Part shown: positions 30,001 through 63,000 of the stretch, in pieces
Layout of the letters: each line of letters opens with the position of its first letter
Position numbering within the stretch: the stretch's first letter is position 1
Origin: Octopus sinensis
Taxonomy: Eukaryota
Assembly (NCBI RefSeq): GCF_006345805.1
Contig: NC_043023.1
Span: 7,936,001-8,000,000 of the forward strand
Length of the DNA: 64,000 bases
Direction of reading: 5' to 3'
Program-made: the position numbers

Positions 30001-33000
30001 CTCTCAGTCACTATGTAAATATCCCTCAAACCATTACTCTCTGATTACATCTCCGTCTCTTAGTTTGTCTTTTACCTAAGTAATTCTCTCCTCCCCTTCA
30101 TGCTACTACTTCCTAGCTCCTCCTCCTCCTCCTCCTTGTTATATTCTATCACTTTTTCCTTCCCCTACTACTCTTATACATTATTACTTTTTCGTCCCAC
30201 TACTACTCTTACAAACTTTCACCTCCACCTCTCTCATCCCTCGTTTAAGAAACAGATTGGGTTTATTTACGTTTCTCAAGAAAAAAAGGTGCCCTTCCCC
30301 CACCCCTAACCCTAAAACAGATAGAAATGCAATAGATCGATACTAGGGTCATAATTATGGGTGACAATTTCATATGACACCGCTAGAAAAAACTGCCGGT
30401 CAAACCGAAAAGATCCTTAGGGTGATGTATAGAGATGGAAAATGACCGGAAAGGAGAGAAAGTGACATCAGGAAGGGACAAGGAGGACCATTAAAGGATG
30501 TTCCGTGAGGAAGCAACAGGTTAAAGATGGTATCCTCTTTACGGGGTCAACAACGCAGTTAACTTATGTGCTGGAAAAGGAGTAGACTTCATTAAAATAA
30601 TCTGGTGTAATTTTGGAAAAACTCGAAGGTAATTTATTGACAGAATGGGACAAAGAAAATCACTGGAGCGGAACCAACAAGTCAGCAGAGCCATCTATTG
30701 GAGAATTAGAGAAATGCAATCATACCAAGGGAAGTAACCTCTACAACACAGTTCCCTTCGTTTATTAATTAGTGCATTTAATTAGCGATCGCTGGACTCG
30801 CATTTTATATCCGAACACGGTAAGTTTACAAAGATTCACTTTAACGCTGTAATGGTGATAATAATACTACGAATAGCAATATAAATAATAGAATTATGTA
30901 AACCTCTCGCTGTCACTGTAATAATTTCGAAGCGGGAACCTGTCAGCATTAGGAAATTATAATTGCTCGTCTTAATTAATGACTTCCAAATTGAAATGTT
31001 GATTTGATGCTTATAAAATACTATGACCGACTGATACATGTGATAGAGCTGAAATTAATTGGTAAAGTGAGAATAAAACAGCGTAATTAATTAGTAAAAT
31101 GTGAGGAGTCCGATTGAAGAATTCCACATTAATATATGTTATCCTGTTGTTTATGAGGCATTGATAAAACGGTAAGTTGATAAAGATTTACTCTAATGTT
31201 ATATTAATAATAGTAATGATGATGATGATTTCAAAAGTGGCCCAGGGTCAGCAATCTTTAATACGAGCGATAAGTCGATTGCATGGGTCCCGGTTTTTTT
31301 CCCGAAAGAGATGAAAGACAAAGTCGATCTCATCCGTATTTGAACTCAGGACTTTCCGCCGAGGTTGGCTTTGTATTTCATTCCATTCCGTGTGAAGAAA
31401 ATAATAATGATGATGATGATAATAGTAATCATTTGATAATTAAAACAATAACCTTTTGTTCTTTTGACTTGAAAATTGGCGGGAGGGCATAAGTGAATTA
31501 CATGGACCCTAGTACTTGATTGCTTCTTATTTTTTCTATCTGGAAATGATGAAAGGGGACCTTGATGTGATTTGAACTTTGAGAGTAATGATGCGATCTT
31601 TTCACTTTGACCGGCAGATTTTAAAAATAATTTCTATGTAACTAAAACATTTTAAACTTCGTATACTGGTAGAATGTGCTTAAAAAACATCTTTTTCTCT
31701 TAGCTTTCTTGAGAAAATTCTGTAGTTTGTAACATGTTTGTTTAATTTCTTGCATTTCAGCAATTTCAACCAATTAATGACGTCTATTGAGGTGAAAACG
31801 ATTTCTGGCGGCGTTATATGAAAATGTCCCTGTTACATATTATATATTCGTTTAAGAAACAGATTGGGTTTATTTACATTTCTGAAGAAAACAAGATACC
31901 CTTTCCCCAACCCTAAAACAGATTGATATGCAATAGATCAATACTAGGATCATAATTATGGGTGGACACTAAATAGGGAACGGTTTTGTTATCCAGCTCT
32001 GTTTACGAGTGACCCCTCAGTTTATGGCCACAGGGTATCTTTTTTCTCATAAAAAACAGGGACATTATAATAAGACGCCGCCAGTAAATCTTACGGCAGA
32101 AATCGTTTTCACCTCATTAGATGTCTTTGATTGGTTGAAATTGCCGAAATGCAAGAAATTAAACAACAGAATTTTCTCAAGAAAGCCAAGAGAAAAAGAT
32201 GTTTTATAAACACATTCTACCAGTATACGAAGTTTAAAATTTTTCAGTTGCTTAGAAAATATTTTTAAAATCTGCCGGTCAAAGTGAAAAGATCCTAATG
32301 ATGTGTAGGGCACTGACCATGGGCTCATCGTAGACAGCATGAAGACAGGGACCTTCACTGCTGGATAGCTAGCGAGCTGGTCCAGAAAAGGGGATTCCGG
32401 TTGGGCAACATGAAGTCTTAAATCAACCATTTTTCTGAAAGGTAAAAGTGAAGTGTGTAGTAAACTTGTGTGGGTATACCAATGTTTCAACGCCTCAATG
32501 AACTCTGACCCCTGAAAACATTGACATTAAATGACTGACAGTGTTCATGTTGTAATATTTACAATGTTGAATTACTATGTCACTTAACTATCCTCTTTAT
32601 CTTACTGTTTCTTTTTATATTTCAGAATATCACATCATGTTGACATGAAAGAAATTACTTCGTTCAGATGTGCCTTAGATATTTTTATCAACTAAAGGAA
32701 GACGATATATTTATAAGGAGCATTCATCTATACATCAACGTTTCTATATAAATATAATCTATGACAAACAACAGCAGAATATTTTTCTTGTCTGGAATGT
32801 AGAGGAGGTGATTGCTTTACAAGTTTGGATAACTTTACAAACGAGTTGACAGTTTTCACCTGTTGATTTAGGTATTAAGTAAGATCACATATGAAAGAAA
32901 GATTAACATTGAATTATTCTCTAAAAAAAGTAATGCAAATGGACACAAACATATTCATAGAAAAGAAAAAAACAATATTATTGTGATATATATGACAAAT

Positions 33001-60000: not shown

Positions 60001-63000
60001 CAATGTTGAATTACTATGTCACTTAACTATCCTCTTTATCTTACTGTTTCTTTTTATATTTCAGAATATCACATCATGTTGACATGAAAGAAATTACTTC
60101 ATTCAGATGTGCCTTTGATATTTCTATCAACTAAAGGAAGATGATATATTTATAAGGAGCATTCATCTATACATCAACGTTTCTATATAAATATAATCTA
60201 TGACAAACAACAGCAGAATATTTTTCTTGTCTGGAATGTAGAGGAGGTGATTGCTTTACAAGTTTGGATAACTTTACAAATGAGTTGACAGTTTTCACCT
60301 GTTGATTTAGGTATTAAGTAAGATCACAGAAGAAAGAAAGATTTACATTAAATTATTCTCTAAAAAAAGTAATGCAAATGGACACAAACATATTCATAGA
60401 AAAGAAAAAAACAATATTATTGTGATATATATGACAAATTATCCTGTCATAATGAATAATTTAACTGAACCTAAAAACCCTGATACAAGAGAGAAACCAT
60501 ATTTCTGTGATGTCTGTGAAAAATCATTCTCTCGAAGAAATCACTTGACTATTCACAAGTGTATTAATACAGGAGAAATGCCATATCATTGTAATATCTG
60601 TGGTGAATCATTTTCTCTAAATAGCACTTTAACTCGACATAATCGTGTTCATACAGGAGAAAAGCCATTTCATTGTGGTATCTGTGGTAAAACATTCTCT
60701 CAAAGTAATGGCTTAACTAAACACAGGCGCGTTCACACTGGAGAGAAACCATATCATTGTGATATCTGTGGTAAATCATTCTCTTGTAGTAGCCACTTGT
60801 CTGATCATAAATGCATTCATACAGGGGAAAAACCATATCATTGTGATATCTGTGGTAAAGCATTCTCTGAAAATGGCACTTTAACTAAACACAAACGCAT
60901 TCATACAGGAGAGAAGCCATATCATTGTAAGATCTGTGGCAAATCATTCATTGAAAGTGGTAACTTGAATAAGCACAAGCGTGTTCATACAGGAGAGAAA
61001 CCATATCATTGTGATATCTGTGGTGAATCATTTTCTCAAAATAGCCACCTGTCTAAACATAAACGTATTCATACAGGAGAGAAACCTCATCATTGTGATA
61101 TCTGTGGTAAATCATTTTCTGAAAATAGCACTTTAACTAGTCACAAATATACTCATACAAGCGAGAAGCCATATTGTGACATCTGTGCTAAAACATTCTC
61201 TTGTAGTAGCCACTTGACTAAACACAAGCGCGTTCATAGAGGAGAGGAATTATATCCTTGAGATATCTGTGGTTAATCATTCTCTTATAATACTCACTTG
61301 ACTAATCATAAACATATTTGTACTGGGGGGAAAAATTCACATCACTGTGATATCTGTGATGAATAATTCTTTCAAAATGGCTACTTCAGTACACATGTGA
61401 GTATTCACACACAACTGTAGCTGTACCAGTATTGAAATTAATTACAACACGACAACAATAACTTCTATTTTTCTCTGCTAAAAGGCGTTTTTTTTTATCT
61501 CTTCAAATTTGATGTTATCAACTTCAAACTCATGAATATGAACCTGAATGCCATGTATATATGGAAATATATCAACACAACAAAGCCTTTGAGGTGTCTT
61601 CACAAGACACCAGCGTATTTATTCAGGGGAGAAGCCATATCAGTGTGATATCTGTGGTACATCATTCTCAAAACAATCTCACTTCAGTACACGTTTGTGT
61701 ATACACACTCAAGTGTGACTATATAAGTTTTAAAATTTGTTACAACATACCTAAAATTACTTCTAGTTTTTCTGCAAAGAGACAGGGATTTTTTTTATCT
61801 CTTCAAATTTCATGGTATAAACTTCAATTTCATCAATGTCAACATCAAATTCAGCAAAGACTTTGATTTCTGAAGATGGTCATGCTGGAGTTTTGTCGAA
61901 TTTGTTATGATAGAATAAAGAAATGGGAATAATGAATAAAAACTGAATTAAACTGAAATTGGTTTTGTCTATTAACTTTCATCATTGTCGTCATTTTCAT
62001 CATCATCATCCTTCAGCGATAGCTTTTCTTTATATGCTGTGATGGGGGGACAGTTTGACATGAGCTGGCAAGCCCTAATGCTGCACTAGGTTCCAGTCTG
62101 ATTTGTTTTGGTTGCTTTGGATGTATTCTCCTAATATTAACCAGTTTACATTTTATGCTGTGTGCTTTATATCATCATCATCATCATCATTTAACATCCG
62201 CCTTCCAAGCTAGCATGGGTTGGACGAGTTGGACGATTTGACTGAGGACTGGTGAATGAAATGGCTGCACCAGGCTCCTTTCTGATCTGGCAGAGTTTGG
62301 ACAGCTTGATGCCCTTCCTAATGCCAACCACTCCAAGAGTGTAGTGGGTCCTTATACATGTCACTGGCATGAGGACTTGTCAGGCTGTACTGGCAACGGC
62401 CACGCTCAAATGGTGATTTTTACGTGCCACCTGCACAGGAAACAGTCCAGCAGCACTGGCAATGACCTCTCTCGAATACTTTTTCACGTGCCATCGGCAT
62501 ATGTGCCAGTAAGACAGTGCTGGTAACGATCATGCTCAAATGGTGCTTTTTACCTGCCACACAGCATATATATATATTTATAAAATTTAATAAGGGTAGA
62601 AATTGATATTAATCAATTAAAACCAATTCATATTAAAAAATCCAAAGATTAAAATATTTTTTACATACAAAATTTAAAGGACTGACCACTAAAAGTTAGT
62701 GGTCAGTCATTTGAGTTTTGTAGGTAAAAAATATATATATATATATATGTGGAAGGGCATCCAGCTGTAGAAACTCTGCCAGATCAGACTGGAGCCTGGT
62801 GCAGGCAATTTAAAAACACAAACCAAACACCACCTTCCTTTCACTTCCCACTCTCTCTCTCTCATGACCTCACTGTCCCTCCTCGGATCTTTTCCTTTTG
62901 AACGGCAGACAATTTCTAGTTAACTAAACACTTTAAAACTTCATATACTGGTAGAATGTGTCAAAATAAAACATTTTTTTCTCTTGGCTTTCTTGAGAAA

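What the first reader, a model, noticed from the sequence alone, without database searches (positions are those of the whole stretch)
32992..61261. Finger arrays are reshuffled while flanking DNA is almost unchanged
Seen: A1, A2 and A3 have near-identical introns and leaders but 15, 14 and 9 fingers. These draw on a shared set of finger types (QRxHLTI, xSNGLT, ENGxLT, xSGHLSD, IESGxLN, LNxTLT) in different orders, with differences concentrated in the recognition helix. Established: PRDM9 and KRAB-ZNF arrays diversify by 84-bp unit exchange. Inference: a combinatorial generator of DNA-binding specificities, possibly tracking the surrounding transposons.
Basis: partly seen in the sequence, partly recalled or inferred. 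Interest (0 to 1): 0.75.

Follow-up and report, generated by a model that had tools for sequence, protein, structure and literature searches.

The report
Tandem zinc-finger gene cluster swapping fingers
Four neighbouring zinc-finger genes, probably from an octopus, have gained, lost and exchanged whole fingers while the DNA around them barely changed, which is the usual way this kind of gene family evolves.

Summary
A1 (32992-34329), A2 (50433-51665) and A3 (60431-61261) carry 15, 14 and 9 C2H2 fingers in 84-nt units. Their flanks are 96.0-96.8% identical by substitutions. Units compared in register are only 76-86% identical. Thirty of 38 fingers fall into six types shared between arrays, in different orders.

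The four DNA-contact positions are the most variable. Within types they hold 25 of 83 variants, 24 nonsynonymous and 1 synonymous, against 33:22 in the scaffold.

- A fourth array, A4, lies between A1 and A2.
- The locus is a ~17.5-kb two-gene tandem duplication, [A1,A4] and [A2,A3].
- A3 is a mosaic with an A1/A2-like 5' half and an A4-like 3' end.
- Each array has its own multi-unit duplications. Some single fingers are chimeras of two types.
- Two finger-derived arrays have grown at 3' ends: an out-of-frame 76-nt unit x15, and a 168-nt unit x6.

This is the known behaviour of tandem poly-zinc-finger paralogs: unequal exchange or conversion, plus selection on contact residues. No KRAB or other effector domain was found. 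The link to transposons, expression and assembly accuracy were not tested. I rate it a new member of a known kind, of modest interest.

The parts
30561..48036 (+). Duplication unit U1, holding genes A1 and A4
   Evidence: Collinear BLAST chain with 48364-64000. Segments are 92-96% identical outside the arrays. Substitution-only identity is 94.0-97.6%.
48364..64000 (+). Duplication unit U2, holding genes A2 and A3; it runs to the end of the window
   Evidence: Same BLAST chain as U1.
32992..34329 (+). A1 open frame from the first ATG: a 23-residue leader and 15 canonical C2H2 fingers
   Evidence: Pfam zf-C2H2 matches 14 stretches at E=7.6e-78.
34326..35486 (+). 76-nt tandem array of 15.3 copies, 95% matches. 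The unit is a finger unit (ESGVLTKHQ type) that lacks 8 nt, so every frame has stops.
   Evidence: TRF, translations, peptide matches in rotating frames. A2 has a single copy.
35449..35616 (+). Two decayed terminal fingers of A1, out of frame with the A1 open frame
   Evidence: Homologous to A2 51664-51831.
42176..43330 (+). A4a open frame: a homologous leader and 13 fingers, ended by a frameshift
   Evidence: Pfam zf-C2H2 matches 13 stretches.
43306..43938 (+). A4b: continuation of the A4 array in another frame, with 3 intact fingers and then two fingers carrying in-frame stops
44123..45189 (+). A4c: 168-nt two-finger unit x6.3, 98% matches. It forms an open 354-aa frame of 12 fingers with no ATG at its start. 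A3 has one partial unit at the homologous place.
   Evidence: TRF. Flank homology 45131-47226 ~ 61591-63691.
50433..51665 (+). A2 open frame: leader, 12 canonical fingers, unit 9 with His->Asn, and a truncated unit 14
   Evidence: Pfam.
51664..51831 (+). Two decayed terminal fingers of A2
58204..60998 (+). 5' flank and fingers 1-6 of A3, which resemble A1 and A2
   Evidence: Upstream flank is 96.0-96.8% identical to A1/A2 but 75% to A4. Units 2.7-6.1 match A1 units 10.7-14.1 at 95.8%.
60431..61261 (+). A3 open frame: leader and 9 fingers. Unit 1 has His->Asn, and there is a one-codon deletion before unit 9.
   Evidence: Pfam.
60998..61394 (+). 3' part of A3 (fingers 7-9 and two decayed fingers), which resembles A4b. 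The junction with the A1/A2-like part lies at the linker between units 6 and 7.
   Evidence: 93.2% identity over 400 nt to 43540-43939; 94.0% by substitutions only.
61593..61691 (+). Remnant of a partial finger plus a terminal finger downstream of A3. It is the counterpart of the seed of the A4c array.

Best explanation
The interval holds a tandem cluster of four paralogous poly-C2H2 zinc-finger genes, all on the + strand, probably from an octopod. No effector domain is recognisable in them.

The cluster is two copies of a ~17.5-kb two-gene unit, [A1,A4] and [A2,A3], that differ by about 3-5% in unconstrained DNA. The finger arrays have changed much faster than that, through the known behaviour of 84-nt tandem repeats:
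1. The nearly invariant linker and scaffold let units pair out of register. Unequal exchange, slippage or conversion then duplicates and deletes whole units and blocks of two to four units.
2. Exchange between the paralogous arrays produces mosaic genes (A3) and chimeric single fingers.
3. Point changes are filtered. Selection is purifying on the scaffold, and there is an excess of amino-acid changes at the four base-contacting positions.

The outcome is paralogs that should bind different DNA sequences.

Shown: the repeat anatomy, the mosaics, the block duplications and the substitution pattern. Inferred: which recombination process acted, that the proteins are made and bind DNA, and what drives the selection.
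For: Two-gene duplication. A collinear chain links 30561-48036 to 48364-64000. Flank identity is 94.0-97.6% by substitutions.

Finger types are whole-unit lineages shared between arrays.
- Among 66 same-type pairs the scaffold is 94.3% identical, against 84.0% among 369 different-type pairs.
- In the ML tree of 49 units, the N (99/97), I (100/97) and Q (99/92) clades mix arrays. The array label needs 14 changes for 15 A1 units, 13 for 13 A2 units and 8 for 8 A3 units, no fewer than shuffled labels.

Array-specific block duplications (except the last two).
- A1 units 2.8-7.2 match units 6.8-11.2 (91.9%, 336-nt offset).
- A2 units 8.8-11.4 match units 11.8-14.4 (95.0%, 252-nt offset).
- The 168-nt unit is present x6.3 at 98% and the 76-nt unit x15.3 at 95%.

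Mosaic A3. Its upstream is 96-97% identical to A1/A2 and 75% to A4. Its 3' end is 93-94% identical to A4, and its downstream 95.4%.

Chimeric fingers. A2.2 is E type at the 5' end and L type at the 3' end; 4 of its 5 variants match L. A2.5 and A2.8 carry patches from other types.

Selection.
- Contact codons show 24 N: 1 S, scaffold 33 N: 22 S (Fisher P=9.8e-4).
- Contact codons against the neutral 4.4:1 give P=0.040. The scaffold excess of synonymous changes gives P=5e-4.
- Pairwise pN/pS is 2.0 at contact codons and 0.38 in the scaffold.

Family. Pfam finds zf-C2H2 families only.

Precedent. Finger gain and loss, and selection on contact residues in recent paralogs, are described for KRAB-ZNFs (PMC3126818, passages read) and PRDM9 (PMC2779102, passages read).
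Against: - No transcript, protein or binding evidence was available. None of the 8 candidate ORF proteins is in the protein collection by exact look-up.
- Three protein searches listed no relative above ~62% identity.
- Two fingers have lost a zinc ligand. In all four genes the terminal fingers are decayed or out of frame, so some copies may be dying.
- The excess over neutrality at contact codons is modest (P=0.040). Some helix 'substitutions' are patches copied from other finger types, which inflates the nonsynonymous count without any point-mutation selection.
- Same-type pairs are not independent, and pooled synonymous divergence in the scaffold (pS 0.12) exceeds flank divergence. The types are therefore older than the 17.5-kb duplication, and the events cannot be dated cleanly.
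- The order test had no power.
- The octopod origin rests on scaffold likeness and on recall of a SINE, not on a DNA match.
Confidence: 0.8

Rival explanations
1. The arrays are dead or dying pseudogenes. The pattern is neutral repeat turnover plus gene conversion between finger types, with no selection for new specificities.
For: - Terminal fingers are decayed or out of frame in all four genes.
- Zinc-ligand His->Asn changes occur in A2 unit 9 and A3 unit 1.
- A4 is broken by a frameshift.
- Finger-derived units also amplify out of frame, as in the 76-nt unit x15.
- Helix patches match other types.
- None of the 8 ORF proteins is in the collection.
Against: - Scaffold pN/pS is 0.29-0.38, with a significant excess of synonymous variants (P=5e-4). 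This shows constraint during the divergence.
- Frames of 445, 410 and 276 codons remain open and in phase.
- 35 of the 38 A1-A3 fingers keep all four zinc ligands: 35 strict matches, with A2 units 9 and 14 and A3 unit 1 failing.
Confidence: 0.2
2. The unit order and copy numbers are assembly artefacts of a repetitive region: mis-joined or collapsed 84-nt repeats, or two haplotypes laid in tandem.
For: Tandem arrays of 76-168-nt units at 95-99% identity are hard to assemble. No read data could be examined.
Against: - The window has no N.
- Arrays A1-A3 stay in phase and in frame over 9-15 units. Every unit is distinct, and the highest identity between any two units is 98%.
- The two 17.5-kb copies differ by 3-5% plus large indels. 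A3 and A4 differ by ~25% in their 5' halves, far more than haplotypes should.
Confidence: 0.07
3. This is a PRDM9-like minisatellite system. Fingers within an array are continually homogenised by concerted evolution and differ mainly between alleles.
For: The same 84-nt unit is present, and there is an excess of change at contact residues.
Against: - Fingers do not cluster by array in the tree.
- Off-diagonal within-array unit identities are mostly 68-87%, and reach 92-96% only between units of the same type. Mouse PRDM9 is quoted as above 90% throughout in PMC2779102 (passages read).
- No PR/SET or KRAB match was found in the frames or in 114 intergenic frames.
Confidence: 0.03

Closest known systems
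Mammalian KRAB zinc-finger gene clusters (recent paralogs from segmental duplication)
   Same: - Tandem same-strand paralogs arising from segmental duplication.
- Arrays of 84-nt units in one open frame.
- Divergence mainly by finger gain and loss, and by changes at the four contact residues of recent paralogs (PMC3126818, passages read).
   Different: - No KRAB or any other effector domain was detected in the frames or in 114 intergenic + strand frames of at least 45 aa.
- The leader is only 23 residues.
- The scaffold consensus is [11 protein letters not shown], not the vertebrate Y-K-C-x-E-C-G-K-[AS]-F form.
- The source is probably an invertebrate.
PRDM9 zinc-finger minisatellite
   Same: 84-nt unit exchange and an excess of amino-acid change at positions -1, 3 and 6 (PMC2779102, passages read).
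   Different: - There is no within-array homogenisation.
- No PR/SET or KRAB was detected.
- The variation described here is between paralogs in one haplotype, not between alleles.
Lineage-specific C2H2 expansions of coleoid cephalopods, and non-KRAB expansions such as cyprinid FiNZ-ZNFs
   Same: - Clustered, recently duplicated poly-ZNF genes lie in a repeat-rich genome.
- The three Octopus proteins among 326 retrieved hits have the finger scaffold closest to the window's: 20, 20 and 19 of 21 positions, against a median of 16.
- Octopus ZNF open frames were predicted genome-wide to match TE consensus sequences more than non-repeat DNA (PMC10547256, section read).
   Different: - No close annotated relative was listed; the best was ~60%.
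- The N-terminal 'ME.S.K..EL' start of two of the three Octopus proteins fetched (P0227, P0229) is not found in the window.
- Finger-level turnover was not addressed in the parts I read of the cephalopod paper PMC12513265 (outline with abstract, introduction, section 16). Its introduction calls the mechanisms of this family's evolution elusive.

Membership tests
Tandem poly-C2H2 (Krueppel-type) zinc-finger proteins | Repeated C-x2-C-x12-H-x3-H motifs | tested here: met
   There are 64 strict matches, all on the + strand. Pfam zf-C2H2 matches 14, 13, 7 and 13 stretches in A1, A2, A3 and A4a.
Tandem poly-C2H2 (Krueppel-type) zinc-finger proteins | 28-residue (84-nt) period with a TGEKP-type linker | tested here: met
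   TRF finds period 84 in all arrays. Over 49 fingers the linker positions are T 45, G 48, E 46, K 45 and P 45.
KRAB-ZNF | KRAB domain encoded upstream of the array | tested here: not met
   No KRAB match was found in the 4 open frames or in 114 + strand stop-to-stop frames of at least 45 aa between the arrays. Exons shorter than 45 aa, or exons outside the window, would be missed.
PRDM9-type arrays | PR/SET domain, and fingers more than 90% alike within one array | tested here: not met
   No SET match was found. Off-diagonal within-array unit identities are mostly 68-87%, and 92-96% only between same-type units. Units do not cluster by array.
Cephalopod lineage-specific C2H2 expansion | The source genome is a coleoid cephalopod and the gene falls in a cephalopod-specific clade | tested here: inconclusive
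   The scaffold consensus is nearest to the 3 Octopus proteins among 326 hits, but the best identity is only ~60%. No eukaryotic DNA collection was open. The SINE-like repeat is attributed to octopus from recall only.
FiNZ-ZNF (cyprinid) | FiNZ N-terminal domain | not tested
   No FiNZ profile was searched by name. No Pfam family other than zinc-finger or zinc-binding models matched the leaders.
TE-targeting ZNF repressors (function) | Binding motif matches a transposon family and represses it | not testable with these tools
   No motif predictor, TE consensus library or binding data was on hand.

The most novel reading that the evidence does not exclude
The arrays also act as seed beds.
- Recombination inside the recognition helix joins the -1/2/3 part of one finger type to the +6 part of another, as in A2.2. 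This makes new helices without any point mutation.
- A leftover 3'-terminal finger can regrow into a new 12-finger array (the 168-nt unit x6 in A4).
- The same kind of leftover can escape the reading frame and become a non-coding 76-nt satellite (x15 after A1).

If this is general in cephalopod genomes, then the short tandem repeats that I recall being reported as enriched beside octopus C2H2 genes would be decayed or frame-shifted finger units. I could not see that paper. On this reading, new zinc-finger genes could be born from such remnants.
Probability: 0.3. Interest if true: 0.5.

Novelty: new member of a known kind. Interest (0 to 1): 0.35.

Why it matters
The locus is a compact, readable example of how a poly-zinc-finger family diversifies in a lineage without KRAB. 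One 34-kb stretch shows segmental duplication, a mosaic gene, block duplications of four different periods, chimeric single fingers, and contact-residue change against a constrained scaffold.

The cephalopod C2H2 paper I read in part (PMC12513265: abstract, introduction and section 16) calls the mechanisms of this family's evolution elusive and leaves the link to repeats open. Loci like this one give concrete, testable cases: proteins of 15, 13 and 9 fingers that share six finger types.

It does not reveal a new kind of system.

Tried and rejected
- Protein searches. Three searches with A1 (whole, leader region 1-52, fingers 5-7) were swamped by generic poly-ZNF proteins ranked by summed score. 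None of the 326 hits kept exceeded ~60% identity over 300 residues, and nothing matched the leader. This does not show that close relatives are absent.
- Exact look-up of 8 candidate ORF proteins found 0 of 8.
- RNA searches found nothing: Rfam 0 matches, tRNA scan 0.
- Pfam on 5 long non-ZNF frames found 0 families. On 114 intergenic frames it found 0 effector domains and one sub-threshold DUF4221 match.
- A regex search for the N-terminal start seen in two of the Octopus ZNF proteins fetched found no match near the arrays.
- A permutation test of the longest common subsequence of finger-type order was uninformative (P=0.38, 0.46, 0.13).
- Papers. The octopus genome paper could not be read under two identifiers. 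A search for octopus + C2H2 + satellite + flanking gave 0 papers. A search for a 20-base stretch of the SINE-like repeat gave 0 papers.
- Rejected: PRDM9-like concerted evolution, and two haplotypes laid in tandem (see rivals).
- Not attempted:
  - Binding-motif prediction. No tool was available, and a recalled recognition code would be unreliable.
  - codeml site models. The program was not available.
  - A spliced gene model.
- Not used: genome contigs, which holds only bacteria and archaea.
- Supplements of PMC10547256 were not opened. They hold octopus motif predictions and per-position entropy, and could bear on the TE and contact-residue claims.
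Full report
WHAT IS THERE

The window has no N. A strict six-frame scan for C-x2-C-x12-H-x3-4-H/C finds 64 fingers. All are on the + strand and all lie between 33067 and 61408.

They form four arrays rather than three:
- A1: frame 32872-34329, first ATG at 32992.
- A4: 42143-45189, in three pieces.
- A2: frame 50313-51665, ATG at 50433.
- A3: frame 60311-61261, ATG at 60431.

The finger counts are:
- A1 has 15 canonical fingers.
- A2 has 12 canonical fingers, plus unit 9 with its last His replaced by Asn, plus a unit 14 that the stop cuts short.
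- A3 has 8 canonical fingers, one of them after a one-codon deletion, plus unit 1 with His->Asn.

Pfam sees only zinc-finger families in the four frames.

No effector domain was found, either in those frames or in 114 + strand stop-to-stop frames of at least 45 aa between the arrays. One sub-threshold DUF4221 match was the only other hit. I built no spliced model and joined nothing. Whether any flank is an intron could not be established.

FLANKS VERSUS ARRAYS

The ~2 kb upstream of A1, A2 and A3 aligns at 96.8% (1861/1922), 96.8% (1872/1934) and 96.0% (2065/2152), counting substitutions only. There are also indels, including ~240 bp (A1 32220-32457) that A1 and A3 have and A2 lacks. The same flank of A4 is only 75-78% identical to the others.

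In contrast, units compared in register are 76.4% (A1-A2, 14 units), 86.0% (A1-A3, 8 units) and 80.2% (A2-A3, 8 units) identical. The data do not meet that condition, so the finding is not refuted on that ground.

FINGER TYPES

By nucleotide identity, 30 of the 38 A1-A3 fingers fall into six types. By their helix residues these are:
- Q = QRxHLTI
- N = xSNGLT
- E = ENGxLT
- H = xSGHLSD
- I = IESGxLN
- L = LNxTLT

Eight fingers were left untyped: A1.14, A1.15, A2.6, A2.11, A2.14, A3.7, A3.8 and A3.9.

Same-type pairs (66) are 94.3% identical in the scaffold and 90.0% in the helix codons. Different-type pairs (369) are 84.0% and 56.3%. The types are therefore whole-unit lineages, not convergent helices.

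An ML tree of 49 units left out A2.14 and A3.9 and included 13 A4 units. It gives starred clades for N (99/97), I (100/97) and Q (99/92), each mixing arrays. The array label needs 14 changes for 15 A1 units, 13 for 13 A2 units and 8 for 8 A3 units, no better than shuffled labels. There is no concerted evolution within arrays.

The orders are:
- A1: Q N E H E I L H E I N H E c c'
- A2: Q E Q L N c E I I H r I H s
- A3: Q L N H E I q e' c''

The longest common subsequences are 7 of 9, 5 of 6 and 5 of 6 shared fingers. Permuted orders do about as well (P=0.38, 0.46, 0.13). The data therefore fit a shared core (Q L N H/c E I) altered by unit gains and losses, plus at least one non-collinear placement per pair. 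They do not demand wholesale scrambling.

A collinear BLAST chain links 30561-48036, which holds A1 and A4, to 48364-64000, which holds A2 and A3. Substitution-only identity of the matching segments is:
- A1-A2 downstream pieces: 97.3%, 95.4% and 97.6%.
- A4-A3 pieces: 94.0%, 95.4% and 97.0%.

This is a ~17.5-kb two-gene tandem duplication about 3-5% diverged.

A3 is positionally the copy of A4. Its fingers 7-9, its decayed terminal fingers and its downstream DNA are A4-like: 93.2% over 400 nt and 95.4% over 2070 aligned sites. Its upstream 2.2 kb and fingers 1-6 are instead A1/A2-like.

The switch lies at the linker between units 6 and 7, near 60998. A3 is thus a mosaic made by ectopic conversion or crossing-over between paralogous arrays. 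I could not resolve which process acted, or its direction.

TURNOVER INSIDE ARRAYS

Each array carries its own block duplications:
- A1 units 2.8-7.2 match units 6.8-11.2 (91.9%, four-unit offset).
- A2 units 8.8-11.4 match units 11.8-14.4 (95.0%, three-unit offset).
- A1 units 10.7-14.1 match A3 units 2.7-6.1 at 95.8%, which equals flank identity.

Some single fingers are chimeras:
- A2.2 is E type up to helix position +3 and L type from +6 on. Four of its five variants are the L states.
- A2.5 is N type with a patch over +3/+4 that matches the Q and H types.
- A2.8 is I type with a generic 5' end.

Two finger-derived arrays have grown at 3' ends.
- After the A1 stop, a 76-nt unit is repeated 15.3 times at 95% (34326-35486). 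It is a finger unit of ESGVLTKHQ type that lacks 8 nt. Every frame is closed, and A2 has one copy.
- Downstream of A4, a 168-nt two-finger unit is repeated 6.3 times at 98% (44123-45189). It forms an open 354-aa frame of 12 fingers with no ATG at its start. A3 has only one partial unit there (61593-61691).

Because amplification also occurs out of frame, it is a property of the repeat and not of selection.

SUBSTITUTION PATTERN

Over 49 fingers the four highest-entropy positions are +3, +6, -1 and +2.

Within the six types I counted distinct variant states against each type's consensus. There are 83 in all:
- 25 lie in the four contact codons (expected 11.9; binomial P=1.7e-4). Of these, 24 are nonsynonymous and 1 synonymous.
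- The scaffold has 33 nonsynonymous and 22 synonymous.
- The other helix codons have 1 and 2.

Contact codons against scaffold give Fisher P=9.8e-4. Against the neutral site ratio of 4.4:1, the contact codons give P=0.040. The scaffold shows an excess of synonymous change (P=5e-4). Pooled pairwise pN/pS is 2.0 for 49 inter-array pairs and 1.7 for 17 intra-array pairs at contact codons. In the scaffold it is 0.38 and 0.29.

Caveats:
- Pairs share ancestry and are not independent.
- The excess over neutrality is modest.
- Some helix changes are patches from other types, so part of the signal is exchange rather than point mutation.
- Pooled scaffold pS (0.12) exceeds flank divergence, so the types predate the 17.5-kb duplication.

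SOURCE ORGANISM

No DNA collection of eukaryotes was open. Three protein searches listed only generic relatives. The best local alignment among the 326 hits kept was 59.7%, and none of the 8 candidate proteins is in the collection.

The finger scaffold consensus of the window ([11 protein letters not shown]...[10 protein letters not shown]) is closest to the three Octopus proteins in that set, from O. bimaculoides, O. sinensis and O. vulgaris. They match 20, 20 and 19 of 21 positions, against a median of 16.

A ~400-nt interspersed element with five aligned copies looks to me like an octopus SINE. That is recall only; a paper search for a 20-base piece found nothing. I do not take the window for human.

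COMPARISON WITH WHAT IS KNOWN

- PRDM9 shows 84-nt unit turnover with dN/dS far above 1 at -1, 3 and 6, but with strong within-array homogenisation (PMC2779102, passages read). That homogenisation is absent here.
- Wells et al. predicted motifs genome-wide for octopus ZNF frames and found them enriched in TE consensus sequences. They also stress that validation is lacking (PMC10547256, section 6 and passages read; supplements not opened).
- Holzinger et al. state that the mechanisms of cephalopod C2H2 evolution remain elusive, and they leave the repeat link open (PMC12513265, outline with abstract, introduction and section 16 read).
- Clusters of C2H2 genes on octopod chromosomes are reported in PMC9795677 (passages read).
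- The octopus genome paper itself was not held. What I remember of it, short tandem repeats enriched beside C2H2 genes, is recall.

VERDICT

- Unit exchange and contact-residue diversification are real.
- The 'generator' is the ordinary dynamics of tandem poly-ZNF paralogs.
- The transposon link is untested.
- 'Introns' is unverified.

Still open: assembly accuracy, expression, and orthologs in other eukaryotic genomes.

Noticed in passing
window 18363-22320 and 22224-22620: A 97-nt unit is repeated 40.8 times at 95%. The unit is the first ~85 nt of a ~400-nt SINE-like interspersed element. A full copy of that element sits directly at the end of the array, and four other copies lie at about 1583-1990, 7138-7546, 25180-25560 and 38097-38490 (- strand). 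The head of a SINE has become a satellite.
   Followed up: partly
window 10339-13037: A tandem array has a 149-nt unit (16.3 copies, 97%) with a 447-nt higher-order period. It has no match to the finger units.
   Followed up: no
window 470-895, 3804-4208, 4437-4854, 26492-26862, 28460-28834, 31595-31968, 39355-39747, 40556-40955, 49257-49631, 56540-56904, 57336-57737: A ~400-nt interspersed repeat is present in at least 11 copies on both strands at 79-92% identity. Copies lie inside the conserved upstream flanks of A1 and A2, so they were inserted before the duplication. A related piece, 2812-3322, matches 31595-32080, 49257-49743 and 59002-59502 at 90-92%.
   Followed up: partly
window 32220-32457: About 240 bp upstream of the array is shared by A1 and A3 (98/106 and 90/95 identical in two windows). 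It is missing from A2.
   Followed up: partly
window 32789-32866 (and the homologous place upstream of A4): A short frame reads CLECRGGDCFTSLDNFTNELTVFTC followed by a stop. It lies just before a GT-AAG-like sequence at 32872, and the A4 copy is nearly the same. It might be a relic finger or part of a 5' exon. Pfam found nothing in the overlapping frame 32679-32846.
   Followed up: no
window 44125-45189: An open 354-aa frame of 12 alternating fingers (ANSDLTR / ERGVLTR) has no ATG at its start, and its copies are 98-99% alike. It is either a very young regrown array or an exon of an unrecognised gene.
   Followed up: partly
window 6150-6578 and 14785-15019: Long microsatellites: (TCTA)n with 107 copies and (TAA)n with 79 copies.
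   Followed up: no
window 15161-15655 (- strand) and 59-481 (+ strand): Open frames of 164 and 140 aa look to me, from recall, like pieces of a LINE reverse-transcriptase protein. Pfam found no family.
   Followed up: no
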